DNA of 64,000 nt from a bacterium ADurb.Bin212 (GTDB taxonomy: Bacteria; Patescibacteriota; UBA1384; XYA2-FULL-43-10): assembly GCA_002070055.1 (NCBI GenBank), contig MWCM01000004.1, positions 10,257 through 74,256 of the forward strand, in the 5' to 3' direction. The notes under the pieces were generated by a model that saw only the letters and a program-made list of their open reading frames with translations, was not told the DNA's origin and searched no databases. This document shows, piece after piece, positions 1-49,900 of the stretch (position 1 is the first letter of the stretch; every line of letters starts with the position of its first letter). Both the position numbers and the translations under genes were made by a program.

Positions 1-730
1 CCTTTTTGGGAATTCCCCGAGTCATCCAGTTGTCGTAAATGTCGGGATCGACAAATTCCTGGGGAAACTCTTGTAGGAAGCCATTTTTTACATTTTTTGC
101 AGTGATAAGTCTCATTCCAGACTCAGTTTTTTGTGGTGTTTTTCCCCTATAATCAATAAATCTAACGTGCTTCACTAATGGACATGTTTCCCAATCTTCT
201 CCGGGATTGTTAAAAATGCTATTAATGTAAGATTCGAAAAGTTCACGAGCGTTTTGCAAATTTTTTTCTGTATTGTTTTTTGCTTTTTCAATTTTCTCAA
301 ATGCTTCATCCAATTTTTTAACAATTCTTTTTTGCTCATTAAGCGAATCTGGGATATTGACGCTTATCGCGTAGACATCGTTGCGATTAATGCCCGGCTT
401 AACCCCTTTTGCAAGTCCTTGTAAATTCAGGGTCTGTAATAGACGATAGATAAACTGTAAATCGTATTTCTTTTTATCAAAAGTTACGTAGTATGTTACA
501 TCTAATGGCCAAAATTTTCCCTTAGTTAATGTTAATTCTCCTGCCGAGCCTTTTCTGCCAACAATAATACTCCCATTGTCATAATAATATGTATCGCTCC
601 AACTTTTGATTCCATTAGCACCGTACACTGGAAACTTCCCATCAGAAATTCGCTCAGATTTTGGTAATGGTTTACCATACTCTAGCTTTAATATTTCGCC
701 AAGCTTTTTTATTCGCCAATTATCGTTCAT
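1..730 (-). CDS. hsdS: Type I restriction-modification specificity subunit HsdS (N-terminal target-recognition domain; 3' part lies beyond the window start)
   Basis: By my translation the minus-strand ORF starts at ATG 730..728, overlapping the stop of the upstream gene by 11 nt. It runs without a stop to position 1. It reads MNDNWRIKKLGEILKLEYGKPLPKSERISDGKFPVYGANG... then ...ITAKNVKNGFLQEFPQEFVDPDIYDNWMTRGIPKK, which is a typical HsdS target-recognition domain pattern. The ORF track did not list it because it runs off the edge. Confidence 0.7.
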   Translation of the reverse strand, partial: MNDNWRIKKLGEILKLEYGKPLPKSERISDGKFPVYGANGIKSWSDTYYYDNGSIIVGRKGSAGELTLTKGKFWPLDVTYYVTFDKKKYDLQFIYRLLQTLNLQGLAKGVKPGINRNDVYAISVNIPDSLNEQKRIVKKLDEAFEKIEKAKNNTEKNLQNARELFESYINSIFNNPGEDWETCPLVKHVRFIDYRGKTPQKTESGMRLITAKNVKNGFLQEFPQEFVDPDIYDNWMTRGIPKK

Positions 731-2150
731 AAGCCCAACTGTCATATTTTATATGTTTTCTTTGGTTGATATATTCAATCAACATATCGTAAAACATTTC
801 TTTCTCTTGGTTACCTTCTATTTTTACCCCAAACCTATTTTCCTTGCGATATTTGTAATTTCTCCATGAAGCGAGAATTGTTTCTTCATCTGGAATATTA
901 AGGCCAAGAGGTCTCAACATAATTGAAATGTAGTATTCATATGGTATACGCCTATTGTCTCTTTTGAGGTCATAGTGTTTAATTTTGACGAGTTTGCCAC
1001 TTAAAGTATCCATATTTGAAAATGAATGAATAGCAATTTTAACAGCGATATCGAATATTTTCTGAGCATTGTCAGAAAAAGCTTCCTCGTAGTAGCCACC
1101 CTTTTTGAGTTCAGTTAATTGATATCTTGAGCCTTTCAGTAGTTCTCTCAAGTTAATTATCCCGCACCCTATAGCCCTCTCATAAATATCTTTCAAAAAA
1201 AGATTTATATAACCAGAATGACCAAATGCCCCAGTTAGGCTCTGATCTTCACACTTAAAACTTTTAATAATATTATCTACAGTATCAAGAAGAGCTTTTT
1301 TGTTATCAAAGTAATAAGGTGCAATTGAAAAGAACTTATCGATATAACCTGAAAAATCAGCATCAGGTCCATATTTATGGTGAAAAACATGCTTTAAGTT
1401 CGAATAATCGCCTACAATAATAACCGAGTCAAACCCAAATTTATTCTCGTGTTCTTTTTCAAAATAAGCGGACAATATGTTTAATATCCTGAAAATATGT
1501 TCGGGGTCTATTCTGTCTAAATCATCTAACACAAGAACACTTTTTTTATTGCCCTTTTGTTGAATAATTTTATCTCGAAGTAAATTACTAATGTAGTCTT
1601 CTTCAGATATGTCCTTTTCTTTCAGTTTTTCAATGTATTTCTCTGCGAGCCCTTTCTCTCCTTTTTCGAACTCTTTTTTAAAATCTTGATATTCTTTATC
1701 CATTTTGAGCAAACTCTTTAAAGGTCTGCCAAGCTTACCTGAAATACCAAAGATAGGATTAGGCAATGTATCAAGAGTTGATAAAGTTGACTGTAATATT
1801 GAATTCAGGGAGTTACTTTTTCTATACCATGAGAAAAAAAGAAGGGCAGAATCCTTGATCCCTTGTATCTTTTTAGTCGTGAGAATATCGTTGTTCTTGT
1901 CTAACAGCTCGATAAGAATGTCATATTTTATCAGCTCAATGATATCTTCATTGTTGCTTATTTCATAGTTAACTGGAAATAAGTGAAAAACCTCATAGTT
2001 ATCTGTGTTTGAATCAAAAAATTCTTTCAAAAAATACGTCTTACCAATTCCAAATTTACCAGAAAAAAATATCCTAGAATTATTTTCCGTATCTAAAAAT
2101 AATTTGAAATTCTCTTGTACTGTATCAATTGGAATTAATATATCGGGCAT
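720..2150 (-). CDS. KAP-family-like P-loop NTPase inserted between hsdM and hsdS
   Basis: Walker A is GKFGIGKTYFLKEF. Walker B followed by the KAP-signature arginine is VLVLDDLDRIDPEHIFRILNIL. There are no obvious TM insertions. The start overlaps the hsdM stop by 1-3 nt and the stop overlaps the hsdS start, so the three genes are co-transcribed. Confidence 0.6.
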   Translation of the reverse strand: MPDILIPIDTVQENFKLFLDTENNSRIFFSGKFGIGKTYFLKEFFDSNTDNYEVFHLFPVNYEISNNEDIIELIKYDILIELLDKNNDILTTKKIQGIKDSALLFFSWYRKSNSLNSILQSTLSTLDTLPNPIFGISGKLGRPLKSLLKMDKEYQDFKKEFEKGEKGLAEKYIEKLKEKDISEEDYISNLLRDKIIQQKGNKKSVLVLDDLDRIDPEHIFRILNILSAYFEKEHENKFGFDSVIIVGDYSNLKHVFHHKYGPDADFSGYIDKFFSIAPYYFDNKKALLDTVDNIIKSFKCEDQSLTGAFGHSGYINLFLKDIYERAIGCGIINLRELLKGSRYQLTELKKGGYYEEAFSDNAQKIFDIAVKIAIHSFSNMDTLSGKLVKIKHYDLKRDNRRIPYEYYISIMLRPLGLNIPDEETILASWRNYKYRKENRFGVKIEGNQEKEMFYDMLIEYINQRKHIKYDSWAYER

Positions 2151-2151
2151 A

Positions 2152-3627
2152 TTATTTTACTTTCAGAATTTTCTCAACCTCTTTTAGGGATAGATTTGCT
2201 CGTATGTCTAATTTTCTAACGTCTTCCAAGATCTTTTCAGGCGGCAGTATTAAACTACCTTCCCTATTATTCGGATTTTTAACCGAGAGATCAAATGTTT
2301 TTTGGCTGATGTCGGAAACATCGATTGTCCAAGAATTTTCTGAATCGGTTTTTGTTTTTTGTAACTCTAGGAATTCCGCAAGATCTTTTTCGGTTAAAGG
2401 ATTTGTTTTGCCAAGATTACGATCGAGGTTTAATTGGTAATACCAAATCTTTTGAGTTGGTGCACCTTTTTCAAAAAACAGCACAACAGTCTTAACCCCC
2501 GCCTGAAAAACTTTTGCTGGAAGATCAAGGATTGTATGAACATTGCAGTTTTTTAGTAACTCTTGGCGCAGACTTGAGGCATCGCCGTTAGATAAAAAGG
2601 TATTTTTTATAACAATGCCTGCCTTGCCCCCGGCTTTCAATTTTTTAATATAATGCTGTAAAAAGAGATAGGCAGTTTCGCTACTTTTAATGGGAAAGTT
2701 TTGCTGGACTTCACTTCGTTCTTTTCCGCCGAAAGGAGGATTAGTTAAAATAATATCGTAGCGGTCTCTTTCTTGAATGTCAGCGATATTTTCTGAAAGT
2801 GTATTCGCATGAACTATGTTTGGCGCTTCAATGCCGTGTAATATCATATTCATAATGCCGATAATGTAAGGAAGCGGTTTTTTCTCGATGGCATAAAAAG
2901 TTTTTTTTTGAAGTATTTCTATGTCTGAAGTTGATAGATTTTTACTGTTTTTAAGGTAATCAAATGCCTCAACCAAGAAGCCAGCTGAGCCAACGGCGCC
3001 ATCGTAAATTTTGTCACCAATCTTTGGGCCGACTACTTTAACAATCGTGCGAATCAGAGGACGCGGGGTATAGTATTCTCCACCATTACGACCTGCATTA
3101 CCCATGTTTTTGATTTTGCCTTCGTATAGGTGAGACAGCTCATGCTTCTCTGATTGTGATCGAAAATGCATTTGATCGACGATATCTAAAATATTGCGAA
3201 GTGTATAACCAGAATGAATTTTATTTCTAATTTCTGAAAATATTTCACCGATTTTGTATTTAATGGTATCTGGTTCGGCATCCGTTTTGAATTTTCTAAG
3301 ATATGGGAAGAGTTTGTGATCGACAAAATCTCGCAAATCATCACCTGATAGAGCCTTATTATGGTCCAATTTACCATCAGCGGTTTTGGGTGCAGCCCAA
3401 ACATCCCAGCGGTATTCTATATTTAAAATAAATTTATATTCTTTGCCGGCAAGAAGAGCTTCTTTTTGTTTTTGTTCTTCGAGATCGTTCAAATACTTAA
3501 GGAAAAGAATCCAAGATGTTTGCTCAACGTAATCTAGCTCACTTGAAACGCCAGCATCTTTCCGAAGGGTATTGTCAATATTCTTAAATGTTTGTTCAAA
3601 ACTAATTTTTGAATTTGTGTCGAGCAT
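2152..3627 (-). CDS. hsdM: Type I R-M N6-adenine DNA methyltransferase subunit HsdM
   Basis: The N-terminus is HsdM-like (LDYVEQTSWILFLKYLNDLE). Motif I region is GEYYTPRPLIRTIVKVV...GDKIYDGAVGSAGFLVEA. The catalytic motif is ILTNPPFGG. Length is 491 aa. Confidence 0.9.
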   Translation of the reverse strand: MLDTNSKISFEQTFKNIDNTLRKDAGVSSELDYVEQTSWILFLKYLNDLEEQKQKEALLAGKEYKFILNIEYRWDVWAAPKTADGKLDHNKALSGDDLRDFVDHKLFPYLRKFKTDAEPDTIKYKIGEIFSEIRNKIHSGYTLRNILDIVDQMHFRSQSEKHELSHLYEGKIKNMGNAGRNGGEYYTPRPLIRTIVKVVGPKIGDKIYDGAVGSAGFLVEAFDYLKNSKNLSTSDIEILQKKTFYAIEKKPLPYIIGIMNMILHGIEAPNIVHANTLSENIADIQERDRYDIILTNPPFGGKERSEVQQNFPIKSSETAYLFLQHYIKKLKAGGKAGIVIKNTFLSNGDASSLRQELLKNCNVHTILDLPAKVFQAGVKTVVLFFEKGAPTQKIWYYQLNLDRNLGKTNPLTEKDLAEFLELQKTKTDSENSWTIDVSDISQKTFDLSVKNPNNREGSLILPPEKILEDVRKLDIRANLSLKEVEKILKVK

Positions 3628-3655
3628 ATTATCCTTATTTGTTATGTAGTTTCTT

Positions 3656-3928
3656 TTATTTGCTCCTTAATAACTCTTCTATTTTCTCAATAAATCTTTT
3701 ATAACTCACGATTTCCTTATCAATCTTTACCCCACCGGACCAGAGGTATAGCCAATCACCGTTTTTTGCTGTCATCTTTGCATCCGGATGTTCGTGGTAT
3801 TCTCTAACCAAATTCTCGGGACCGTTTCGCAGTAATCTTAAAATCTCTTTTGAAAAGTCATTGTCTTGGTCTTGCAGTGCTTTGGTAAAATCCGTAATCA
3901 ATTCGTTGAGGTTGCTGTAACTTTTCAT
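3656..3928 (-). CDS. hypothetical small protein (90 aa) immediately upstream of hsdM in the same gene string
   Basis: ORF sits 28 bp upstream of hsdM on the same strand. No recognisable motif. Confidence 0.4.
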   Translation of the reverse strand: MKSYSNLNELITDFTKALQDQDNDFSKEILRLLRNGPENLVREYHEHPDAKMTAKNGDWLYLWSGGVKIDKEIVSYKRFIEKIEELLRSK

Positions 3929-4073
3929 TTTTGTAATAAAAGATAATTTTAATTAACAATAAATAGTCAAATCCCGACTAGTTATCTCTCTTTAATTTAT
4001 AAGTCGATTATACCACTTTCACACCTGATATGGAAGAGAACGAAGCTGTTTTTAATCACTATAAGGATAAGGC

Positions 4074-4439
4074 CTAATACTTGTCCAATATCGCTTTCAT
4101 CTCCTTTAGAATTTTCTTCTTATAAACTCCGATGGCGTAATCCAGATGCAATTTCATTCTTTCAGGAGAGTTTTTCGCCGACAGCTTTTTATCCGGTTGG
4201 GACTTTACTTCTTTTGCAATCCCTCGAATAAACTTTTTGTCGAAAGCATCCGGCTTTTGGGCTTCTTTCTCAATATCCAACCACCAGCGAAGCTCGGCTA
4301 TCAATTTGGCAAAGCTTGCCCCGTCCTTATGATTAAGTATTACGCCGTTTTTTCTCTTGACAGTGGCGATTGCTTTCTTTATGTCTTCCTTTGTCGGTTC
4401 GGAAATATCCGGTTTGAACGCTTTTTGATCTTTCATCAT
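4074..4439 (-). CDS. hypothetical protein (121 aa), lysine-rich
   Basis: ORF between the PLD nuclease and the 90-aa ORF, same strand, tightly spaced. No recognisable domain. Confidence 0.4.
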   Translation of the reverse strand: MMKDQKAFKPDISEPTKEDIKKAIATVKRKNGVILNHKDGASFAKLIAELRWWLDIEKEAQKPDAFDKKFIRGIAKEVKSQPDKKLSAKNSPERMKLHLDYAIGVYKKKILKEMKAILDKY

Positions 4440-4444
4440 ACTCC

Positions 4445-5161
4445 TTAACTAAATAGGGTAAATATCGCTCTCATACATTTTAACGATAATACAATCAGAT
4501 TGGAAATAACAGCCGGCAACTTGCTGATAAACTTAGGAACGGAAATCTTCGGGATCATAATTTTTAATCTTGGTCGAAAACTAAACTTTTTCCTGTCAAC
4601 CAAACTTCGATATAACCTCTCATACTGGTATTTATAACCCTCGGCCAGCTTTTTATTAAGCCCCAAGTGGTCCATGACCTGTTTGGCCATGTCTTCGTCT
4701 TCGCTTCGGCGCATCATCTCCCGGCTTTCTCTTTGCGATAGGATATTCAAACTCCCATCCCAAAGGATCTTGCGATCGATAACCGCTGTCTTGGCATGAA
4801 CCAGCCCGGGCAAGGGGATTATGCAGGCTCCCAGCTCCTCGTAATCTTTCAGCGCCGCCTTAATTTCGCTCCTCACAATCAACTCGTGATCTTCAATCGA
4901 CCTGGTGAAGATAAACACGGCAATATTGCGATATTTGAGCTGTTTAAATATCCGGCTGAAATATTCCGAGCGATATTTGGAGATAAAGGGTGAATAAATT
5001 ATGACCTCCTTCTCCGCCAAAAGGAGATCGCGAGAGAAAGATTTATAAAATGATTTTTCATCATATAGATCGAGCTTTCGCGATTCTCTATACTTTTCGG
5101 CATCGATTTCATTTTGCCTGTTTTCAAAATGCCTTTTTAGCGTCGGTGATAATGTTTTCAT
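4445..5161 (-). CDS. PLD-family (HKD motif) nuclease
   Basis: HKD motif is LVHAKTAVIDRKILWDGSLNILS (HxK-x4-D-x6-GSxN). The most plausible start is ATG 5161..5159 (MKTLSPTLKRHF), preceded by AAGGAGG at the right spacing. The ORF-track extension to 5308 is probably non-coding leader and would run into the divergent HTH gene. Confidence 0.7.
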   Translation of the reverse strand: MKTLSPTLKRHFENRQNEIDAEKYRESRKLDLYDEKSFYKSFSRDLLLAEKEVIIYSPFISKYRSEYFSRIFKQLKYRNIAVFIFTRSIEDHELIVRSEIKAALKDYEELGACIIPLPGLVHAKTAVIDRKILWDGSLNILSQRESREMMRRSEDEDMAKQVMDHLGLNKKLAEGYKYQYERLYRSLVDRKKFSFRPRLKIMIPKISVPKFISKLPAVISNLIVLSLKCMRAIFTLFS

Positions 5162-5224
5162 ATTCCTCCTTATAATTATTTTGTTAATCTGGATTTTTAG
5201 GTTTGAAAGTGATATATTCTGGAT

Positions 5225-5440
5225 ATGACAGCCAAACACAGCGGGAATATTTACAAAGGTCTCGGCGACAAGCTTAAGAAGTATCGGGAAGCGGCCAAGA
5301 TGACGCAAGCCAAGGTAGCCGAATTAGCGGGTATCCATGTTAACTATTACGCTAGAATGGAAAGGGGCGAGGAAAATCCGACACTGGAAGTGTTGCATAA
5401 GCTAAAGGAAGTACTGAAAATAAAGTCAGATTTAGTCTGA
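5225..5440 (+). CDS. XRE-family helix-turn-helix transcriptional regulator
   Basis: HTH core is MTQAKVAELAGIHVNYYARMERGEENPTLEVLHKLKEVL. It is divergent from the PLD nuclease/hsdM gene string with a ~60-bp shared intergenic region. Confidence 0.75.
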   Translation: MTAKHSGNIYKGLGDKLKKYREAAKMTQAKVAELAGIHVNYYARMERGEENPTLEVLHKLKEVLKIKSDLV

Positions 5441-5517: not shown

Positions 5518-7035
5518 TCAGGTCCACCAAATTTCATTTTTCGCAATTTCTTCCGCTTCGCTCGGCGCTTCGCGCCTCGCTTGCGGTGGCAAATTCAAGA
5601 GTAAATTGTATTGTTTTTGAAAATTCATATTGAGTTTTCCGCCCAGAAGAATGCGGTTCGAGCCGGCGGTTTTAAGAAAATTTCTCATAGCGGAGAAATT
5701 TTTTGTTTTAACAAAATTTTCAGCTTGGTTGGCGTCATAAATCCAATTTTTCAAGAGTTCGAGCCAATGATTTCCCTTTCGCTCAAAATCTCTTAACTTT
5801 TCTTCAAACTCGGCTTTTTGCTCGATAAGTTTGTTTTTCTTTTCTTTGAATTCCTCTAGCTCCAAAGCTCCGTCTAAATATGCGTCAGAAAGCCGATCAA
5901 GCCGAGTTTTGATATATTCTATTTTCTCTTTTAGATTTTGAGCGAAAACAGCCGACGAGTGGTTTTCTTCATTTTCCCACTCTTTGATCTGTAGCATATA
6001 CTTTTCTTTCCACTCGTCGGGTAAAGAAACTGTTTGACAAAGTTCTTCTATCTGTTGCGCTAAAACTTCTTCACGAACGAACTTTCGCTCGGTGCAATTT
6101 TGGGTTTTGCTTTTATGGGTGCAACGATAGTAAACATACTCTCTACCACTTGGCTTAAACTTTCTCTCAGCAGTTATGGCATAACCGCAACTTCCGCATT
6201 TGGCAAAACCCAAAAACTTTAGTTCTCGTTCAGTTCGTTTCTTGCGGGGTTTAGAGTGGTCTTTTAGCGCAACTTGGATTTTGTCAAAAGTTTCTTTTGA
6301 AATCATTGGCTTATGGGAACCTTGATAGAGTTCGCCATCATAACTTATGACGCCGTAATAAAATGGCTTTGTTAAAATCTTCTGTATAGATGACAAAGCC
6401 ATTTTATTGCCATCTTTGCCAACCAAGCCAAGAGAAAACATTTTTGCTTGAATTTTAGTTAGCGAAAACTCGCCAGAGGCAAAAAACTCCAGCGTTTTCT
6501 TAACCAAAGGAAATGTCTTTTTGTTTGGCTCAATAGTTCTAAGTCTTGGCTCGTTGAAGTAACCGAGTGGAGCTTTGCTTGGCAATTCTCCTCGGCGAAG
6601 TTTTTGCCTGATTCCTCGCAAAATGTTTTCTCTTAAATTGTCGGTGTAATATTTGGCTTGGCCAAAGGCAACGCTTAACATAAACTTTCCTTGCGGAGTT
6701 GCCTCAAACCAAAAGGTTGGGAATTTTAGCGAAGTAATTTTTCCGGTATCGACTAAATAGATAACTCTTCCGCCATCAACAGAGTTTCGGGCTAAACGAT
6801 CTGGGTTCCAGGCTAAAATTCCCGAAGCGTTGCCTTTTTCAATTTCCAAAAGCATTTGGTTAAAAATCGGTCGCCCAGGCTCCTTGGCGGTTCGACTTTC
6901 GGTAAATTCACGGACGATCATTAAGTCATTTTGTCGGGCAAAATCGCGTAGCTCTTGGAGCTGGGCTTCAATAGACAAAATTTGCCTTTCTTCCTCTTCG
7001 GAAGATTTACGGCAATAGATAAAGTACTTTTCCAT
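5518..7035 (-). CDS. large serine recombinase (resolvase/invertase catalytic domain, recombinase domain and zinc-ribbon)
   Basis: The N-terminus FIYCRKSSEEEERQILSIEAQ carries the catalytic Ser context. The recombinase domain contains GYFNEPRLRTIEP. A Cys cluster CGSCG...CTHKSKTQNC forms a zinc ribbon. It ends in a coiled-coil C-terminus. AAGGAGGG precedes the ATG. Confidence 0.85.
   Translation of the reverse strand: MEKYFIYCRKSSEEEERQILSIEAQLQELRDFARQNDLMIVREFTESRTAKEPGRPIFNQMLLEIEKGNASGILAWNPDRLARNSVDGGRVIYLVDTGKITSLKFPTFWFEATPQGKFMLSVAFGQAKYYTDNLRENILRGIRQKLRRGELPSKAPLGYFNEPRLRTIEPNKKTFPLVKKTLEFFASGEFSLTKIQAKMFSLGLVGKDGNKMALSSIQKILTKPFYYGVISYDGELYQGSHKPMISKETFDKIQVALKDHSKPRKKRTERELKFLGFAKCGSCGYAITAERKFKPSGREYVYYRCTHKSKTQNCTERKFVREEVLAQQIEELCQTVSLPDEWKEKYMLQIKEWENEENHSSAVFAQNLKEKIEYIKTRLDRLSDAYLDGALELEEFKEKKNKLIEQKAEFEEKLRDFERKGNHWLELLKNWIYDANQAENFVKTKNFSAMRNFLKTAGSNRILLGGKLNMNFQKQYNLLLNLPPQARREAPSEAEEIAKNEIWWT
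5521..5660 (-). repeat. Repeat copy A: the 3' end of the intact serine-recombinase gene (last ~45 codons), homologous to copies B and C
   Basis: The reverse complement of 5521-5660 aligns at ~85% identity with 7150-7286. The shared encoded peptide is ...NRILLGGKLN(M/I)NFQKQY.LL.NLPPQAR....EAE....NE.WW. Confidence 0.8.
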
Positions 7036-7156
7036 AATTCCCTCCTTAAATTTTGTCTATTAACCAAATGCTTTTATGTACCGACAATTTATTGAAAATT
7101 TTGTTCCCGCCGGCTCTAAAGAATTACATTCTTTTCTGTGCTTCGCACAGAAACCG

Positions 7157-7334
7157 CATTTTGCTGGGCGGAAAACTCAATATTAATTTTCAAAAACAAT
7201 ATGAATTACTCTCGAATTTGCCACCGCAAGCGAGAGCCATTGGCTCGAGCGAAGCGGAACAAAAAGCAATAAATGAAAAATGGTGGTGTGTTTTGAACGA
7301 AGCTCGAACTTTTTTCGAAAAAAATACTCAATAA
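7157..7334 (+). pseudogene. orphan C-terminal fragment of a serine recombinase gene
   Basis: It encodes RNRILLGGKLNINFQKQYELLSNLPPQARAIGSSEAEQKAINEKWWCVLNEARTFFEKNTQ*, homologous to the last ~45 residues of the intact recombinase. No upstream recombinase body is present, because the sequence 5' of 7150 is unrelated. Confidence 0.6.
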
Positions 7335-7344
7335 ATTTTCGCTC

Positions 7345-7458
7345 GCGCGGCCGTGAAGGGGCGTGGGGAGGAAACGGCCGCGCTCGCTCAAAATGTTTTC
7401 AAAAATGCAATTTGCTCGTGCGTGCGCAGGAAGGGGTGTGGGGAGGGAATGCGCACGC
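7345..7458 (+). other. GC-rich twin-hairpin module; it recurs in reverse orientation at ~10671-10784
   Basis: Hairpin 1 is gcgcggccg / 21-nt G-rich loop tgaaggggcgtggggaggaaa / cggccgcgc. Hairpin 2 is gcgtgcgc / 23-nt loop aggaaggggtgtggggagggaat / gcgcacgc. The module is ~70% GC in a ~35% GC genome. Confidence 0.6.
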
Positions 7459-7561
7459 TCTCGCTTTTTGGGGCGGGGCGAAAAAATAGCAGAAAAGGTA
7501 AGCTTATGCTAATTATAGTATGTAGTATCAAAATTAGCAATTAGCTTATACTGATGATAAA

Positions 7562-7780
7562 ATGAGTAAAGAAAAAGTTCTAGAAAAATTTGGCATCAGA
7601 GTTCGACAAGAACGGATGAAATTGGGTTTATCGCAAGAAGCTTTGGCAGACAAGGCTGGAGTACACCGAACTTATGTCGGCATGATTGAAAGAGCAGAAA
7701 AAAATATTACTTTGCTCAACATTGAAAAAATTGCCAAAGCATTAAAAATAAGTATAAATAATTTAACAAAGTGGGACTGA
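7562..7780 (+). CDS. XRE-family HTH protein, likely an R-M controller (C-protein)
   Basis: HTH is LSQEALADKAGVHRTYVGMIERAEKNITLLNIEKIAKAL. It sits 3 bp upstream of the REase gene. A dyad GCTAATT-N17-AATTAGC (7508-7538) upstream is a possible operator. Confidence 0.65.
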   Translation: MSKEKVLEKFGIRVRQERMKLGLSQEALADKAGVHRTYVGMIERAEKNITLLNIEKIAKALKISINNLTKWD

Positions 7781-7783
7781 ATT

Positions 7784-8668
7784 ATGAATAAATTATGGTG
7801 CAAAGATTGCGAAAAAGACTTTTTCTTTAGTGCATTGAAATTGGCAACTCCAGAACAATTATTTTACGTTACTAGCGACCAGAAGTATTGTGCTTATTGG
7901 CCGAAAAAATACGGCGACGTAAAATCGACTCTCCAAAGCAGAAACTCTCTTATTGGAAACTACACTGAAAAATGGGGTGTTGAGCTTTTTAGAGAAATTG
8001 CTGAAAAGCTTGGTGGCTTTTCGGTTCAGGGCGTTATTTGTGAAGAAATTGGTCTAACTCGACAATCTGCTGCCGATGTGGCGATTTGCAAAACAAAGAA
8101 TGTGATTCAAAAGCCAGAAAACATTTTGATGATTTTTGAAATTAAGATGTCGATAACTTGGAACTGGGAGCTTAAGCAACGAGGCAAGGAATATGATCTG
8201 GTATGTCTTGGCGATTACAACACTCACCAAGGAAATCCAAGTTTGCTAAGATCTGATTCAATGTTGAAAGCTATTGGGAAAAGTATCAATATTCGAGTTT
8301 CAAGTTTTGCGGCTAGTAAAATTCCAATCGTGATAATTGGTAATACACCGATCACAAGCTCCTATTATAAAAAAGTTGATCACTTGAAACAAAGCGGAAT
8401 TATTCAAGGTTTTTGGTCCGTCAATCCCGAGCCATTGGACAATAACAAAGAAAGCTTAGAAAAAACGAAGCTCGGTGGTTTCATCAGAATTAACAAATAT
8501 GACGAACTTGTAAAAATGACGCTCGATCTAGGTGCAGACGATAGAGAATTCTTTTCAAGCATGCAAAACAAACAAAGACTTGGAGAAATAATTAAAATTG
8601 CAAATCAGGAAGAAACCGAAGAAGCGAAAGCTCAAAAATTTCTTGAACTTATTAGGGAGGTAGAGTAA
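7784..8668 (+). CDS. putative Type II restriction endonuclease (PD-(D/E)xK-like)
   Basis: It lies between the C-protein-like gene and the methyltransferase gene. A candidate catalytic core is ...AADVAICK...ILMIFEIKMS (D...E-x-K). There is no match to other families that I can recognise. Confidence 0.45.
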   Translation: MNKLWCKDCEKDFFFSALKLATPEQLFYVTSDQKYCAYWPKKYGDVKSTLQSRNSLIGNYTEKWGVELFREIAEKLGGFSVQGVICEEIGLTRQSAADVAICKTKNVIQKPENILMIFEIKMSITWNWELKQRGKEYDLVCLGDYNTHQGNPSLLRSDSMLKAIGKSINIRVSSFAASKIPIVIIGNTPITSSYYKKVDHLKQSGIIQGFWSVNPEPLDNNKESLEKTKLGGFIRINKYDELVKMTLDLGADDREFFSSMQNKQRLGEIIKIANQEETEEAKAQKFLELIREVE

Positions 8669-9574
8669 ATGGCAGAAGTTAAGACACGAAAAGGAACAGA
8701 AACCAGCTCTTTCGGTACACCTGGAAGAAGCAATCATGATGCTTCCAAATTTTATGCAAGCAAAATGTATAGTGGTTTGAATAACGGCAACGGAGATGTT
8801 GAATATCGCGAAAATCCGATCAAAGAAGAATATATCAACAAAATATTCTGCAAAAGTAGCGAGAAAATGTCGGAGCTTCCCAATGACAGTGTTCATATTA
8901 TGATCACTTCCCCGCCATATAATGTTGGAAAGGATTATGACAAGGATTTGAGTCTGGACGACTACCGAAAACTCCTATACAGAGTTTTCAAAGAAACATA
9001 CCGAGTGCTAGTTCCTGGCGGTAGGGCTTGCATAAACATCGCCAACTTAGGCAGGAAGCCATATCTTCCTTTGCATAGTTATATTATTGAAGACATGGCA
9101 GAAATCGGTTATATCATGCGAGGTGAAATTATTTGGGATAAAGGTTCAAGTGCCAGTCCTTCAACCGCTTGGGGTTCGTATCTTAAAGCTAATAATCCCG
9201 TCTTGCGTGATGTTCATGAGTATATACTTATTTTTTGCAAAGAAACTTATTCGATGCAAAACTTGCATAAAAAGAAAAGTACAATCACTAAAGAAGAGTT
9301 TATGGAATATACCAAAAGCGTCTGGAAGTTTGCCGCTCAAAGGGCTTCAAAGGTTGGACATCCGGCGCCTTTTCCTCTCGATCTTCCATCGCGCCTGATT
9401 AAGCTATACACTTTCGAAAATGATGTTGTTCTCGATCCGTTCACTGGCGCCGGAACGACAAATGTTGCCGCCTTAGAACTCAATCGTAGGCATATTGGTT
9501 ATGATGTTGATAAAAAGTATTGCGATTTAGCAGAAAACAGAATAATGCAATGCAAAAGTAAATTACCATTATAA
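8669..9574 (+). CDS. DNA methyltransferase, beta-class (motif IV SPPY precedes motif I FxGxG); likely N4-cytosine or N6-adenine
   Basis: Motif IV is IMITSPPYNVGKDYD. Motif I near the C-terminus is VVLDPFTGAGTTNVAALE. Length is 301 aa. Confidence 0.85.
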   Translation: MAEVKTRKGTETSSFGTPGRSNHDASKFYASKMYSGLNNGNGDVEYRENPIKEEYINKIFCKSSEKMSELPNDSVHIMITSPPYNVGKDYDKDLSLDDYRKLLYRVFKETYRVLVPGGRACINIANLGRKPYLPLHSYIIEDMAEIGYIMRGEIIWDKGSSASPSTAWGSYLKANNPVLRDVHEYILIFCKETYSMQNLHKKKSTITKEEFMEYTKSVWKFAAQRASKVGHPAPFPLDLPSRLIKLYTFENDVVLDPFTGAGTTNVAALELNRRHIGYDVDKKYCDLAENRIMQCKSKLPL

Positions 9575-9978
9575 TGGAAAATAAACGCAAACATTTAGAG
9601 TTTATTCAAAACGTTATCAGTCGAATGGCTGGCAATCTATTTTTTCTTCGTGGCTGGACTATAACGTTAATTGCTGCATTACTTGCTCTCTTTGCTAAAG
9701 GTGGAAACCATACCTATATACTTTATTTTCTGATTGTTTTGATAATAGTATTTTGGATTTTAGACGGATTTTTTTTATCTCAAGAACGACTTTTTCGTGA
9801 CCTCTACAATGATGTCCGCTTACTAAAAGAAGAAAAAATAGATTTCAACATGGATGTTTCGCCTTATAAAAATTACAAAAAGAATACACTAATCTTTTCT
9901 ATGTTTTCTTCGACTTTATTAATATTTTACATTCCACTTGTCATCACTGCCTTGGTTATTATCTATTTAGTAAAATAA
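9574..9978 (+). CDS. small integral membrane protein (3 predicted TM helices), translationally coupled to the methyltransferase
   Basis: The start ATG overlaps the methyltransferase stop (taATGg). Hydrophobic segments are WTITLIAALLALFA, YILYFLIVLIIVFWILDGFF and LIFSMFSSTLLIFYIPLVITALVIIYLV. Confidence 0.5.
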   Translation: MENKRKHLEFIQNVISRMAGNLFFLRGWTITLIAALLALFAKGGNHTYILYFLIVLIIVFWILDGFFLSQERLFRDLYNDVRLLKEEKIDFNMDVSPYKNYKKNTLIFSMFSSTLLIFYIPLVITALVIIYLVK

Positions 9979-9986
9979 GAATTATT

Positions 9987-10643
9987 ATGGCTAAAAAAAT
10001 TTTTGTGAGTTATAAGCACAATGATCAGAGTGTTAAACCGCTAAAACAATATCTAACAGCAACTGCCAGAGATTATGTCGACGAACTTGAGAAGTATTTT
10101 GAAGAGGGAGACTTTATCTACAAAGGAGAGGATGTCGACAACGACCTGAGCAATCTGACAGACGGAAGTATCGCTCAAATCCTTTACGACAAAATATATG
10201 ACAGCTCGGTAACAATAGTTTTAGTTTCAAAAAATATGAGAGATTATAAAACCGAGAAGGATCAATGGATACCTCGAGAAATCTCTTACTCCCTTACTGA
10301 AAATAACAGGGGTGAAAGGATTAGCGCTACCAATGCTATGCTCGCTGTAGTTTTACCGGATGAAAATGGCGATTACTCATACATCGTCACACATCACCCA
10401 TGCGTGACACGCTGGAATACAGCTTCGTTATTCAACATTCTCAACCAAAATATGTTTAACAGGAAAAGTAAAAACACCTATCAATGCACTGATTGTTACG
10501 GGCAACACCATACTGGAAAAGACCATTCATATATTCACCCGGTCAAATGGGATGATTTTATTTTGGATATCGATGGTTATATAAACTTAGCTACGGAAAT
10601 TCAACAGAATATTGATGAATACGATATAGCAAAAGAATTATAA
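9987..10643 (+). CDS. TIR-like domain protein (ThsB / DUF1863 / MTH538 type) with a Cys/His-rich C-terminal extension
   Basis: The N-terminus is KIFVSYKHND, the TIR strand-1 pattern. The central region is SVTIVLVSKNM...QWIPREISYSL, matching the DUF1863 S..VLIG...W..YEI pattern. The C-terminus is HHPCVTRW...YQCTDCYGQHHTGKDHSYIHP, a possible zinc site. It starts 8 bp after the TM-protein stop. Confidence 0.6.
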   Translation: MAKKIFVSYKHNDQSVKPLKQYLTATARDYVDELEKYFEEGDFIYKGEDVDNDLSNLTDGSIAQILYDKIYDSSVTIVLVSKNMRDYKTEKDQWIPREISYSLTENNRGERISATNAMLAVVLPDENGDYSYIVTHHPCVTRWNTASLFNILNQNMFNRKSKNTYQCTDCYGQHHTGKDHSYIHPVKWDDFILDIDGYINLATEIQQNIDEYDIAKEL

Positions 10644-10648
10644 TTCCG

Positions 10649-10920
10649 CCCCCGCCCCAAAAAGCGAGAGCGTGCGCATTCCCTCCCCACACCCCTTCCT
10701 GCGCACGCACGAGCAAATTGCATTTTTGAAAACATTTTGAGCGAGCGCGGCCGTTTCCTCCCCACGCCCCTTCACGGCCGCGCGAGCGAAAATTTATTGA
10801 GTATTTTTTTCGAAAAAAGTTCGAGCTTCGTTCAAAACACACCACCATTTTTCACTTCGTGCCAATTCTTCCGCTTCGCTCGAGCCTTCGGCTCTCGCTT
10901 GCGGTGGTAAATTCAAGAAT
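10649..10920 (-). repeat. Repeat copy C: the GC-rich twin-hairpin module plus a recombinase 3'-end fragment, an inverted copy of B
   Basis: Positions 10649-10867 are nearly identical to the reverse complement of 7480-7262. Positions 10790-10920 encode, on the minus strand, ...LPPQARAEGSSEAEELARSEKWWCVLNEARTFFEKNTQ*. The upstream body position is occupied by the APH-like kinase gene. Confidence 0.85.
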
Positions 10921-46900: not shown

Positions 46901-49900
46901 TAATTGTTTACTCCGTCAGAACCCAAGCGATAAATTTGACCGTTTGAGATAGTCCAGTTAGCTCTCTTGTCGGGACTCAAATAAATTGTTCCAGCTCTGC
47001 TATCTTCGGCATCGCTTCCGTTGGCATTTATTATTCCGGAATAGCTATCCTTTTCCACTCCAGCAAAACTAATTCTACCGCCACCACCACCATAACCACC
47101 TAAAATTGGGTCTGTCATCTGTCCGCCCTTTGCCCTAACAATTCCATTGCCAGTTAGTTCTTTGGTCGAAATATTAATTGATCCTCCCGAACCATATCCT
47201 ACATAAGAACAGCACAAATACCCCATTCCATCAGATGTTACAGAGCCAGAAACGTTAAAAGAGCCTTTTGCAGCTATTATTGCTGCACCGCCCCCAGAGC
47301 TCTCATTGATATTATATCCTCCGCTACCTAAATCAGTTGGGTTTTCAAAAGAACCATAAGTGTTTTTTGTATTTAAAAATCCAGTACCGCCATAGGTAGC
47401 TCCCATCTGACCTCCAGTGCTCGCACCCGGACCACTTCTCTTCTCATACCCCTTACCATCAGTATTTATACTCCCCCCACTCTGCAAATCTATATCCCCC
47501 TGTACTGCTAACATCAATTTGTATTGCTCGGTTGTGGTGTTTGCAGTATGTGTAATAGTGCCACCAGATTGAACTACTACATCACTAAGAATGGTTTGAG
47601 TAACGGCATTACTCTGCTCTAGGGTGCCGGTGCCGGTAACGGTGATACTTCCACCGGTGCCGATGTTGTTGGTGAATTGTAGAGTAGTAGCATTGCTTCC
47701 CCCAAGTACTAGAGAGCCGAAGTTAATATCGGCATTAGTTGTTATGGTGTTGGCAGTGTCTAGGGTTACGGTATCATTGGGGTCGGGAGCTCCGTCCGGG
47801 TTCCAGTTGTTACCATCATTCCAAACAGTGGTGCTTGCTCCACCATCCCATGTTTTGGCAGTGCTTGTGGTATCCCAGCCAACACAGTTATCCTGAGTAG
47901 TATTTAGAGCATAGATGGTACCACTAGAATTATTAGAATCTGTTACATCTACATAATTAGCATAAACATTACCGCTATCTGCTATATTCCATCTAGTACC
48001 CGGGGTGTTAGACAATAAAGTTACCAAACTACCACTTTCTCCAGCGAAACGAAGATTAGTACCGGCAGAGGTGGTAATGGTCTTATTGGCAACAACAGTA
48101 TAGCTACCACCAGCGGCAAAGTTTAACGTACCAGCAGTTAGGTTGATATTGTTTGCTATAGTAGCAGTGCCGGAAATAGTAGCGCTACCGCCAGATTTGT
48201 CTACTGTTATTACACCGCTTGGTAATATTCCCCCCGAAGCAACAGACATAGTTTGGGTGCCGGTGCCAGTAAAGTTGATGGGGGAATTGCCACCACCGAA
48301 GGTGCTTTCTACTACTACATCACCCTTGGCTTCGATGGTGCCGGTGTTTACTTTACCTACATTAAGACCCAGAGTACCATTGACAATAATACTGTCACCC
48401 GAAGTAATAGTTAAAGTATATGCATTATTGGGCATGTCAACGGTAAAGTTATAGAAATCTTCAGTAGCCTGAACATCTATTACAGATGTTGAAGACGCAA
48501 ATTTCCAGTAGAATGCAACCGTACCGTTATTATGATTAAAGATACCGCTTTCACCAATAGTAAAATCAGCAGCATTTGCAAAGATCATGGTGCCATTAGC
48601 TGGCGCGTTAAGCGTACCATTTTGTAGATCTATACTTGGCAACATCCAACCATCTGAGATATTTACTGTTTGACCATCATTAATAAGAATTTTACCATCA
48701 CCGCCACCAAATGTTGCCGAACTCGAAAGTGTGCCGTTTAGATCAATGATTCCACTTCTAAAGCTCCCTTCTGTTAGTGTTAGCGCTCCATCCACCTTTA
48801 ATGTGTCTCCAGTGGCGACAGCAAGATTGTATGCGTCGTTAGCTAAATTAACTAAGAGACTATTTATTTCTAAAGACGAGGGAGAATCAATTGTAAAAAT
48901 CGTTGAGTCGCCCCCACTACCAATAAGAGCAATTGTGCCGTTATTGTGATTAAAGATACCGCTTTCACCAATAGTAAAATCAGCAGCATTTGCAAAGATC
49001 ATGGTGCCATTAGCTGGCGCGTTAAGCGTACCATTTTGTAGATCTATACTTGGCAACATCCAACCATCTGAGATATTTACTGTTTGACCATCATTAATAA
49101 GAATTTTACCATCACCGCCACCAAATGTTGCCGAACTCGAAAGTGTGCCGTTTAGATCAACTGTTCCAGTTGATAATTTACCAACAGCTGTATTTAATAC
49201 ACCAGCCACTGTTACGGTATCATCTGAATTAATTTTTAGGTTGTACCCATTACTTCCAAGATTTATTGTTAAATTATAAAATATCCCATTGTTTGGAATA
49301 TCAATTGATGCCAATGTAGCACTGCTTGTGCCAGAAAAGACCACCGTGCCACTGTTGTGACTGAATGTACCGCCACTATGGATAAATTTTGCCATTGAAG
49401 CAAATGTCATCGTCCCCGAAGTAGCCGTAAAGCTGCCACTGTTAATTACTAGGTCGCTACCATCTCCGCTAAAGCCGATAGCAGCGTCTCCCCCTGTGAA
49501 GGTGCCGGAGTTCTGGATGAAGGCGCTTGTTCCTATGGTGATAGAGTTAGAGTTTTGGGTAATGGTAGCAGTGTAGTCGGAGATAAGAAGACCAGCAATA
49601 TTGATAGATGTATCAATGTTGCAGTTACCTAAGTGGCTTGAGTTAAAGTAGGCTCTCTCTCCTGAGGTAGGTACATGGCTTAGAGACCAGTTGGCGGTAT
49701 TGTTCCAGTTAGAATCTGTATCTGCTATCCAATTGTTAGTAGCTAAGGGAGAGGAGCTAAAGTCCCAGCCAGTGTTGTTACCGGAGTCTATAGAGTTAGT
49801 AGCTACTATATTGGCAGTAGCATGGTTAGTATTGTAAGAGTCTTTAACATCTAGGTAGTCTGCTGTAGTTAATCCACAGTTGTTTTCAAAGTACCAAGTA

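What the first reader, a model, noticed from the sequence alone, without database searches (positions are those of the whole stretch)
7562..10643. Compact cassette of C-protein, REase, SPPY methyltransferase, 3-TM protein and a ThsB-like TIR protein with a Cys/His tail
Five genes on one strand have 3-8-bp gaps or overlaps (MTase stop/TM-protein start share taATGg). The whole cassette is bounded by the perfect inverted repeats B and C. The last gene encodes a DUF1863/MTH538-type TIR domain (KIFVSYKHND; SVTIVLVSKNM...QWIPREISYSL) like Thoeris ThsB. No ThsA (SIR2/SLOG/Macro) partner is present. Instead it is preceded by a 134-aa three-helix membrane protein. It also carries a C-terminal HHPC...CTDC...HH cluster not typical of ThsB. 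One possibility is a minimal TIR signalling module, with the TIR as sensor or NADase and the small TM protein as effector, hitch-hiking on a Type II R-M. Another is a TIR that directly backs up the R-M, with the Zn-like tail sensing DNA or methylation state.
Basis: partly seen in the sequence, partly recalled or inferred. Interest (0 to 1): 0.8.

Follow-up and report, generated by a model that had tools for sequence, protein, structure and literature searches.

The report
Type V Thoeris joined to restriction-modification
The small membrane protein and the TIR protein form a type V Thoeris anti-phage signalling pair, a kind first described in late 2025, placed directly behind an ordinary restriction-modification operon in a tiny uncultured bacterium; this is a new example of a known system, not a new kind.

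Summary
The five genes, their spacing and the flanking inverted repeats are real. The window comes from the Patescibacteria MAG 'bacterium ADurb.Bin212'.

Genes 1-3 are a C-protein-controlled Type II R-M. They comprise an HTH controller, a PD-(D/E)XK nuclease whose model resembles the CCGG-family enzymes BsaWI, AgeI and NgoMIV, and a beta-class SPPY methyltransferase. This trio also occurs elsewhere without the last two genes.

Genes 4-5 are a separate module. The 134-aa protein matches PADLOC candidate PDC-M50A at full length. The 218-aa protein matches a PADLOC ThsB model and PDB 9vyl at full length, Cys/His tail included. In 64 of 80 species-level genomes a TIR gene lies directly beside a homologue of the membrane protein. 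One of those TIRs (Woesebacteria) is identical to an entry that Yirmiya et al. (bioRxiv, Dec 2025) list as 'DUF2270 - Type V' Thoeris.

The pair is therefore ThsF plus ThsB. ThsB senses infection and probably makes 3'cADPR. ThsF is a three-helix membrane effector. The 'atypical Zn tail sensing methylation' idea is not supported.

The less ordinary part is the packaging. The same ~85-nt GC-rich inverted repeats bracket other defence cassettes next to large serine recombinases.

The parts
5518..7035 (-). Large serine recombinase (505 aa), divergent from the cassette
   Evidence: Pfam Resolvase 4e-20, Recombinase 5e-10 and Zn_ribbon_recom 2.5e-9. NCBIfam gives weak XisF/CcrB-like matches. Homologues lie beside ThsF-ThsB or R-M cassettes in L002/L003, L035, L043, L044, L075, L099 and L105.
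5524..5658 (.). Repeat copy A: the true 3' end of the recombinase gene. It is inverted relative to arm B and direct relative to arm C.
   Evidence: the repeat finder I2/I5 and D1; alignment.
7152..7478 (.). Left arm (B). The outer part is a pseudo-copy of the recombinase 3' end. The inner 205 nt are GC-rich, contain two hairpin units, and are identical to arm C.
   Evidence: The inner ~85 nt recur at 94-99% identity at the borders of other cassettes.
7562..7780 (+). C (controller) protein, HTH_3
   Evidence: Pfam HTH_3 9e-17. PADLOC Control_protein 4e-21.
7784..8668 (+). Type II restriction endonuclease with a PD-(D/E)XK fold (invariant D98, E119, K121)
8669..9574 (+). Beta-class N4-cytosine/N6-adenine DNA methyltransferase (SPPY motif)
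   Evidence: Pfam N6_N4_Mtase 1e-45. PADLOC MTase_II 8e-135. The nearest PDB entries are 2zie and the N4-cytosine MTase 8s9n.
9574..9978 (+). ThsF-like effector: an N-terminal amphipathic helix plus three membrane helices. Its start overlaps the MTase stop codon (TAATG).
   Evidence: PADLOC PDC-M50A 5e-46, full length. It is 60% identical to the only candidate effector next to the TIR that Yirmiya et al. list as 'DUF2270 - Type V'. There are 4009 cluster representatives at E<=1e-3, and 21 of 111 relatives touch PF10028 weakly.
9987..10643 (+). ThsB: a TIR-domain sensor/cyclase with a conserved Cys/His-containing C-terminal domain. The putative catalytic residue is E98.
   Evidence: PF08937 3.5e-7. 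PADLOC ThsB1 PDLC00428 2e-72. PDB 9vyl 3e-52. It belongs to TIR cluster 2742576382 of Table S1. E98 is invariant.
10650..10918 (.). Right arm (C), the inverted copy of arm B, including about 40 codons of recombinase 3' end

Best explanation
The locus holds two independent defence modules packed into one co-directional gene string. The first is a C-protein-controlled Type II restriction-modification system (C, a PD-(D/E)XK nuclease of the CCGG-family fold, and an SPPY beta-class methyltransferase). The second is a type V Thoeris system (ThsF membrane effector plus ThsB TIR protein).

Inferred mechanism, by homology to validated systems: ThsB recognises a phage cue through its C-terminal domain. 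Its TIR domain (E98) then converts NAD+ into a cyclic ADP-ribose isomer, most likely 3'cADPR. The signal binds in positively charged cytoplasmic pockets between ThsF protomers. Conserved K4, H7, R17, K/R26 and R75 are candidate pocket residues. The ThsF ring then breaches the membrane and aborts the infection. The R-M cuts unmethylated incoming DNA first, and Thoeris is the second, suicidal layer.

The 1-nt overlap of the MTase stop with the thsF start suggests co-transcription and translational coupling with the methyltransferase.

The whole string sits between 269-nt inverted repeats derived from the 3' end and downstream region of a large serine recombinase gene. This marks it as one of a family of exchangeable defence cassettes.

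What is shown: gene identities, homology, conserved adjacency and repeat structure. What is inferred: the signal molecule, oligomeric pore formation, phage defence, and any recombinase action on the repeats.
For: PADLOC: the TM protein matches PDC-M50A (5e-46) and the TIR matches ThsB1 (2e-72), both at full length. PDC-M50B is itself a 162-aa TIR, so the pair was already a PADLOC candidate.

Adjacency: 64 of 80 species-level loci have a TIR ORF directly next to the TM gene, across Patescibacteria, Bacteroidota, Gammaproteobacteria, Bacillota and others. Partners include TIRs matching the validated B. thuringiensis DAR 81934 type V ThsB at E down to 8e-74.

Direct link to the publication: the L041 TIR is letter-for-letter the Table S1 entry IMG 2627332732 'DUF2270 - Type V'. 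Its only co-directional neighbour is a TM protein 60% identical to ours.

Published mechanism: type V uses 3'cADPR and a three-TM DUF2270 effector modelled as a homo-heptameric channel (10.64898/2025.12.03.692087).

Other support: the TIR subfamily includes PDB 9vyl 'cyclic ADP-D-ribose synthase TIR1'. B. dafuensis TIR1 makes the ThsA-activating cADPR isomer (10.1101/2021.01.06.425286). ThsF proteins at least 68% identical to ours pair with at least five ThsB subfamilies, including B. cereus MSX-D12-like ones, which fits a shared signal. A SLOG-TM fusion (P0459) shows the TM module lies downstream of a nucleotide sensor.

R-M. Independence of the two modules.
Against: The 134-aa protein itself does not match Pfam PF10028 (DUF2270) at E<=0.1. 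Ten close 132-143-aa relatives next to type V-like TIRs do not match it either, and the matches seen in 21 of 111 relatives were weak; the two I read individually scored 10-13 bits against the 25-bit cut-off. Its assignment to ThsF therefore rests on the authors' cluster-level label plus neighbourhood, not on a curated model.

No system with this ThsB subfamily paired with ThsF has been tested. One validated type V system (Bacillus sp. 1NLA3E) was not triggered by added 3'cADPR, so the signal may differ.

The AF2 monomer is of modest confidence (pLDDT 68), and the oligomer could not be modelled here. Nothing has been tested in a Patescibacteria host.
Confidence: 0.85

Rival explanations
1. Guard of the R-M. 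In this reading the TIR-TM pair is a backup that fires when the adjacent restriction system is inhibited, for example by a phage anti-restriction protein, as PrrC does inside Type I R-M loci. The Cys/His domain would sense DNA, methylation state or the R-M proteins.
For: The thsF start overlaps the MTase stop. In at least 6 other species-level loci thsF overlaps or abuts a different MTase gene. About half of the non-TIR upstream neighbours are R-M or nuclease genes. PDC-M50 was found by the 'embedded in R-M/BREX/DISARM' criterion.
Against: The same ThsB subfamily, tail included, works with a SIR2-SLOG ThsA in type I Thoeris without any R-M. Many ThsF-ThsB pairs have no R-M neighbour, for example L061, L068, L071 and L077. 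The identical C-R-M trio occurs alone or with other tails. Validated type V systems defend as two-gene operons.
Confidence: 0.07
2. TIR as the killing NADase rather than a signal maker. The membrane protein would act as sensor or anchor, for example detecting membrane perturbation at DNA injection, and would activate the TIR to deplete NAD+.
For: Many bacterial TIR domains are NAD+-depleting effectors (background). The 134-aa protein has no recognised ligand-binding domain.
Against: ThsB-type TIRs of this and neighbouring subfamilies are interchangeable among Thoeris types, each with a dedicated effector. The TM module is fused behind SLOG sensor domains in some proteins. In the validated type V system, added 3'cADPR was toxic to cells carrying the system, and a 3'cADPR sponge substantially reduced defence.
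Confidence: 0.05
3. Addiction or stabilisation module. A toxic membrane protein and its partner would serve mainly to keep the mobile cassette in the genome rather than to stop phages.
For: The genes lie inside a repeat-bounded, recombinase-associated cassette. R-M systems themselves behave as addiction modules.
Against: Homologous pairs defend against phages experimentally. The pair is also found in chromosomal islands without mobile-element signatures.
Confidence: 0.03

Closest known systems
Type V Thoeris (ThsB + ThsF/DUF2270), Yirmiya et al., bioRxiv 10.64898/2025.12.03.692087; validated in B. thuringiensis DAR 81934 and Bacillus sp. 1NLA3E
   Same: A two-gene unit of a ThsB TIR protein and a small three-TM effector. 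The effector family is the one the authors label 'DUF2270 - Type V' (L041 identity). Our TIR belongs to their cluster 2742576382.
   Different: The ThsB subfamily differs from those of the two validated systems. The effector does not reach Pfam PF10028. The host is a Patescibacteria MAG. The pair is welded onto the 3' end of a C-controlled R-M operon.
PADLOC-DB candidate PDC-M50 (Payne et al., 10.1101/2024.01.29.577857, 'guilt by embedding')
   Same: PDC-M50A matches our TM protein at full length (5e-46). The candidate is a TM + TIR pair found embedded in R-M-type loci.
   Different: PDC-M50B models a 162-aa TIR subfamily. Our TIR hits it only at E 0.029 and instead fits ThsB1 model PDLC00428.
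Type I Thoeris ThsB 'TIR1' (PDB 9vyl; B. dafuensis TIR1 of Ofir et al. 2021)
   Same: About 50% identity over the full length, including the Cys/His tail. It has the same catalytic W-x-x-E motif. B. dafuensis TIR1 makes the ThsA-activating cADPR isomer.
   Different: There the partner is a SIR2-SLOG ThsA that depletes NAD+. Here it is a membrane protein. That 9vyl is the B. dafuensis protein is my inference from its name.
Type II (TM + Macro ThsC) and type VII (SLATT ThsH) Thoeris
   Same: A TIR-made signal activates a membrane-disrupting effector.
   Different: Our effector has no Macro domain. The SLATT-related DUF4231 hit is only E 0.038, below the cut-off, and is not among the 25 Pfam families most often matched in relatives.
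C-protein-controlled Type II R-M systems (such as PvuII and BamHI) and the CCGG-family nucleases BsaWI/AgeI/NgoMIV
   Different: The nuclease has no detectable sequence similarity to any characterised enzyme. Its recognition site is unknown. Two extra defence genes are appended behind the MTase.

Membership tests
Type V Thoeris | ThsB: a TIR-domain protein with the catalytic glutamate | tested here: met
   PF08937 scores 31 bits, above the 21.2 cut-off. PADLOC ThsB1 2e-72. E98 in the QWIPxE motif is invariant in 37 homologues.
Type V Thoeris | Effector ThsF: a small protein with three membrane helices of the family labelled DUF2270 | tested here: inconclusive
   There are three hydrophobic segments. 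The protein is 60% identical to the effector beside IMG 2627332732, which the authors list as 'DUF2270 - Type V'. Pfam PF10028 itself is not matched by our protein, and 21 of 111 relatives match it only weakly (best E 1.4e-5; the two read individually scored 10-13 bits against the 25-bit cut-off).
Type V Thoeris | Effector and TIR genes adjacent and co-directional, with the pairing conserved across genomes | tested here: met
   The gap here is 8 nt. In 64 of 80 species-level loci a TIR lies directly next to the TM gene. The pair also occurs on Priestia and Terribacillus plasmids, and homologues of both proteins occur on Klebsiella and Escherichia plasmids.
Type V Thoeris | The TIR makes 3'cADPR on infection, and the effector is triggered by it | not testable with these tools
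   Inferred only, from homologues.
Type V Thoeris | The effector forms a ring-shaped homo-oligomer with positively charged inter-protomer pockets | not tested
   Only a monomer could be modelled (pLDDT 68). Conserved basic residues K4, H7, R17, K/R26 and R75 are compatible with such pockets.
Type I Thoeris | A ThsA with SIR2 (or TM/Macro) plus a SLOG domain next to ThsB | tested here: not met
   No SIR2, SLOG or Macro hit in any ORF between 720 and 15945.
Type VII Thoeris (SLATT effector) | The effector matches a SLATT/DUF4231 model | tested here: not met
   DUF4231 scores E 0.038 and 14.9 bits against a cut-off of 24.7. It is not among the 25 families most often matched in 111 relatives.
PADLOC PDC-M50 | PDC-M50A (TM) and PDC-M50B (TIR) together | tested here: inconclusive
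   The A component is met (5e-46). The B model is hit only at E 0.029, because our TIR belongs to another ThsB subfamily.
C-controlled Type II R-M | A controller HTH protein, an endonuclease and a DNA methyltransferase in one conserved unit | tested here: met
C-controlled Type II R-M | C-box operator, recognition sequence and cleavage activity | not tested
   A conserved AT-rich palindromic stretch (GCTAATT...AATTAGC, about 7508-7545) precedes the C gene here and in L095. It was not analysed further.

The most novel reading that the evidence does not exclude
The inverted repeats may be more than debris. They could be the working ends of a cassette-exchange or inversion system run by large serine recombinases in Patescibacteria. 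An ~85-nt GC-rich hairpin element, plus a copy of the recombinase's own 3' end, brackets interchangeable defence cassettes. These cassettes include various R-M types, R-M + Thoeris V, R-M + ClpP-like protease and an HATPase system. The recombinase gene itself is found in both orientations. Such a system would be a dedicated platform for swapping immune genes in organisms with very small genomes.
Probability: 0.3. Interest if true: 0.65.

Novelty: new member of a known kind. Interest (0 to 1): 0.33.

Why it matters
The result assigns two 'hypothetical proteins' of a candidate-phyla-radiation bacterium to a defence family for which experimentally validated members exist. The ThsF effector family is very large, with about 4000 clusters at 50% identity. 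It is strikingly conserved in Patescibacteria (72-82% identity across classes), while its TIR partners are swapped freely. The pair is repeatedly welded onto the 3' end of R-M operons.

This matters for annotation, because Pfam and NCBIfam give nothing for ThsF. It also bears on how ultra-small episymbiotic bacteria stack a first-line and a suicidal defence in about 3 kb. The repeat-bounded packaging could point to a new way in which defence genes move, but that part is unproven.

Tried and rejected
- **Pfam and NCBIfam on the TM protein.** Only sub-threshold noise came back (DUF3784, DUF2208, Ac76, DUF4231).
- **SLATT reading.** Dropped, because the DUF4231 hit is weak and not reproduced in relatives.
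- **Literature.** Searches for 'PDC-M50', '9VYL' and '8xMP' gave nothing usable.
- **REase.** There was no sequence hit in Pfam, PADLOC, NCBIfam or the PDB. Only the structure comparison identified it.
- **Repeat arms as RNA.** There was no Rfam hit, and folding was no better than shuffled sequence (z -0.63).
- **tRNA attachment site.** I looked for one at the recombinase 3' end, as seen in relatives. ARAGORN finds none in the window near 5.5 kb.
- **Repeat motif in viral contigs.** Absent.
- **Zn-tail/methylation-sensor idea.** Rejected, because the tail is a subfamily-wide ThsB feature that also occurs in R-M-free type I Thoeris.
Full report
**Observation**

The gaps between them are 3, 0, -1 and 8 nt. 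The methyltransferase stop codon and the start of the next gene share TAATG.

The cassette lies between inverted repeats at 7210-7478 and 10650-10918. The arms are 269 nt with 12 mismatches. The inner 205 nt (7274-7478) are identical and all mismatches fall in the outer 64 nt. The repeats are unique within the 64-kb window apart from a third, partial copy at 5524-5658.

That third copy is the genuine 3' end of a 505-aa large serine recombinase gene (5518-7035, - strand), which has Resolvase, Recombinase and Zn_ribbon_recom domains. The outer parts of both arms are pseudo-copies of this 3' end. The inner parts are GC-rich hairpin units.

An exact protein match identifies the source as the metagenome-assembled 'bacterium ADurb.Bin212' (BWY19_00304 and BWY19_00305). 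Its relatives are overwhelmingly Patescibacteria.

**The R-M part**

Gene 1 is a controller protein (HTH_3 9e-17; PADLOC Control_protein 4e-21).

Gene 3 is a beta-class N6_N4 methyltransferase with the SPPY motif (1e-45; PADLOC MTase_II 8e-135). Its nearest solved relatives are 2zie and the N4-cytosine MTase 8s9n.

The same C-R-M trio occurs in three other settings:
- In a Spirochaetales genome it occurs without the two downstream genes (L010-L013).
- In other CPR contigs it carries different tails, either 82 aa + 356 aa in L095/L096 or a ClpP-like SDH protease in L107.
- In L098 (95% nucleotide identity) it carries the identical five-gene layout.

The R-M is thus a self-contained module.

**The TM-TIR part**

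PADLOC matches the 134-aa protein end to end to the candidate family PDC-M50A (5e-46). It matches the 218-aa protein end to end to ThsB model PDLC00428 (2e-72). PDC-M50B is itself a 162-aa TIR. The pair had therefore been flagged as a 'phage defence candidate' by the guilt-by-embedding screen of Payne et al..

The TIR also matches PDB 9vyl, 'putative cyclic ADP-D-ribose synthase TIR1', over its full length, Cys/His tail included (E 3e-52). In an alignment of 37 homologues E98 is invariant, C167 is invariant, and C139 is nearly invariant. Many members carry an extra CxxC. The tail is thus a conserved, possibly metal-binding, part of a large ThsB subfamily and not an oddity of this locus.

The membrane protein family is very large. 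It has 1692 clusters at 90% identity and 4009 at 50% identity. It is unusually conserved among CPR classes (72-82% identity). It has three hydrophobic segments and an all-helical model. Across 111 diverse members the nearly invariant residues are K4, H7, Q12, R17, K/R26, W28, D64, E71, R75 and Y78.

**Co-occurrence**

I fetched 80 species-level genomic loci encoding a relative of the membrane protein. In 64 of them a TIR ORF lies directly beside it: 46 downstream, 8 upstream and 10 on both sides.

The hosts include Patescibacteria, Bacteroidota, Gammaproteobacteria, Chloroflexota, Planctomycetota, Bacillota and archaea. The pair also occurs on Priestia and Terribacillus plasmids. Homologues of both proteins also occur on many Klebsiella and E. 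coli plasmids.

The TIR partners belong to many subfamilies. Some match the experimentally validated type V ThsB of B. thuringiensis DAR 81934 at E down to 8e-74. ThsF proteins at least 68% identical to ours pair with at least five different ThsB subfamilies.

**Link to the published system**

Yirmiya et al. (bioRxiv, Dec 2025) defined Thoeris types V-XI. Type V is ThsB plus ThsF. ThsF is a three-TM protein that they annotate as DUF2270. It is modelled as a homo-heptameric channel with basic inter-protomer pockets. In the B. thuringiensis system it is triggered by 3'cADPR.

Their Table S1 lists TIR cluster 2742576382 under 'DUF2270 - Type V'. This is our TIR subfamily, tail included. One entry, IMG 2627332732, is letter-for-letter the TIR encoded at L041:5404-6072 in the Woesebacteria genome CP011214.1. 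The only co-directional neighbour of that gene, 1 nt upstream, is a 133-aa protein 60% identical to our membrane protein. The genes downstream of it are a convergent R-M pair. The authors' ThsF therefore includes our family.

There is a caveat. Pfam PF10028 itself does not recognise our protein or ten close relatives. Among 111 more distant relatives, 21 match it weakly (best E 1.4e-5), and the two I read individually scored 10-13 bits against the 25-bit cut-off. Membership in 'DUF2270' is thus a remote-homology, cluster-level statement.

Some relatives fuse the TM module behind a SLOG domain (P0459) or behind an 8xMP membrane domain (P0444). The SLOG fusion fits a role as the output of a nucleotide-sensing step.

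**Mechanism**

By homology, ThsB detects infection and its TIR domain cyclises NAD+. The product is most likely 3'cADPR. B. dafuensis TIR1 makes the ThsA-activating isomer; PDB 9vyl, the full-length match of our TIR, carries that protein's name, so I infer that TIR1 belongs to this subfamily. The two validated type V TIRs make 3'cADPR. Near-identical ThsF proteins serve many ThsB types, including B. cereus MSX-D12-like ones.

The signal would then bind the cytoplasmic face of a ThsF ring and open or disrupt the membrane.

None of this is shown for this locus. One validated type V system did not respond to added 3'cADPR, so the ligand remains an inference.

**Relation between the two modules**

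They are separable. The reading of a Zn tail sensing methylation state has no support.

Still, the join is tight and recurrent:
- thsF overlaps or abuts a methyltransferase gene of a different family in at least six other species-level loci.
- About half of the non-TIR upstream neighbours are R-M or nuclease genes: N6_N4, C5 and N6 MTases, ResIII, TdeIII, MTES_1575, HNH and GIY-YIG.

A guard-type relation therefore cannot be fully excluded. I give it about 7%.

**Surroundings and repeats**

Upstream of the recombinase lie a PLD-family nuclease, an HsdM-like methyltransferase and a KAP NTPase. The region is therefore a defence island.

The inner ~85 nt of the repeat arms recur at 94-99% identity in 13 metagenome stretches. 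Where a gene next to the arm could be identified, it is a C-protein gene lying 100-150 nt from the arm's inner end. In L107 and L111 a second, inverted copy of the arm closes the far end of the cassette, as in this window.

The cargo differs between these cassettes:
- the same C-R-M plus a protease (L107);
- a Type I-like MTase plus an S subunit (L101);
- an EcoRI-like MTase plus a DUF5655 protein (L103 and L108);
- a Bsp6I-like nuclease (L099);
- an HATPase-like 787-aa protein (L111).

In L105 a recombinase that is 86% identical at the nucleotide level reads straight into the arm and the C gene. This is the arrangement expected if the segment between copies A and B of our window were inverted. 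In relatives the recombinase 3' end abuts or overlaps a tRNA gene. No tRNA is found at that position in the window.

These facts suggest a family of exchangeable, recombinase-associated defence cassettes. I found no direct evidence of inversion or excision. The arms have no Rfam match and no exceptional folding energy.

**Verdict**

The main interpretation, a TIR sensor plus a small membrane effector beside an R-M, is right. It corresponds to a kind already described: PADLOC PDC-M50 and type V Thoeris. This locus is a new member of a known kind, in an under-studied phylum, with an unusually compact fusion to an R-M operon. Interest is modest at 0.33. The repeat-bounded cassette architecture is the part most worth a further look.

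Noticed in passing
window 7396-7480 and 10648-10732; loci L095, L096, L099, L101-L111: The inner ~85 nt of the inverted-repeat arms recur at 94-99% identity at the borders of other defence cassettes in CPR metagenomes, and the cargo differs between them. Examples are the same C-R-M plus a ClpP-like protease, a Type I-like MTase plus S subunit, an EcoRI-like MTase, a Bsp6I-like REase and an HATPase-like 787-aa protein. In the cases resolved, the arm lies 100-150 nt upstream of a C-protein gene.
   Followed up: partly
window 5524-5658, 7152-7286 and 10842-10918; L105:21-891: There are three copies of the recombinase gene's 3' end. A and B are inverted around the recombinase gene, B and C are inverted around the cassette, and A and C are direct. 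In L105 a recombinase 86% identical at the nucleotide level reads straight into the arm and the C gene, which is the arrangement expected after inversion of the A-B segment. A x C recombination would excise a 5.3-kb recombinase + cassette circle. Neither event was demonstrated.
   Followed up: partly
L001-L004 (Magasanikbacteria, same locus in four samples): The content downstream of thsB differs between samples. It is either an EcoRI-like MTase + GmrSD, or a serine recombinase + 156-aa protein + a large MTase/helicase. L002 and L003 hold two recombinase copies about 80% identical and 6159 nt apart, the second flanked by 127-158-nt inverted repeats. A tRNA-Gln gene sits at the first copy's 3' end.
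   Followed up: partly
window 720-5308 (- strand): Further defence-type genes lie upstream of the recombinase: a KAP P-loop NTPase (720-2150), an HsdM-like N6 methyltransferase (2152-3627) and a PLD-family nuclease (4445-5308). The cassette therefore lies in a defence island.
   Followed up: no
L001:5702-5998, L014:4701-4997, L038:4700-4996 and others: A small GIY-YIG protein (about 98 aa) sits 2-4 nt upstream of thsF in at least five loci. It may be a third component or a homing-type mobility gene.
   Followed up: no
proteins P0459 (378 aa) and P0444 (351 aa): Two domain fusions involve the ThsF-like module. In P0459 a SLOG cluster2 domain is followed by the module. In P0444 an 8xMP (PF24838) membrane domain is followed by it. 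P0435, a 171-aa relative of ThsF, weakly matches the 136-position 8xMP profile over nearly its whole length (E 0.013), which hints at a sister family.
   Followed up: partly
plasmid hits H9-H25 and H32-H33 (Klebsiella, E. coli, Enterobacter): Distant ThsF homologues (35% identity) and homologues of the type V ThsB both occur on many Klebsiella and Escherichia plasmids, most of them conjugative (TM in 38 Klebsiella and 36 Escherichia records; TIR in 41 and 34). I did not check whether the two genes lie on the same plasmids. The listed ThsF hits lie under 'hypothetical protein' or no annotated feature.
   Followed up: no
window 7508-7545; L095:1030-1075: A conserved AT-rich palindromic stretch (GCTAATT...AATTAGC, then AATTAGCTTA) lies just upstream of the C gene in this cassette and in the 81%-identical L095 cassette. 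It is a candidate C-box operator. A TATACT box ends 9 nt before the ATG, so the mRNA may be leaderless.
   Followed up: no
window 48515-48807 and 48929-49221: A 293-nt direct repeat, 89% identical with 414-nt spacing, lies far from the finding. It was not examined.
   Followed up: no
L113-L122 (IMG/VR): Ten viral or proviral contigs encode ThsF-like proteins (33-57% identity). The effector family is therefore also carried by phages or prophages.
   Followed up: no
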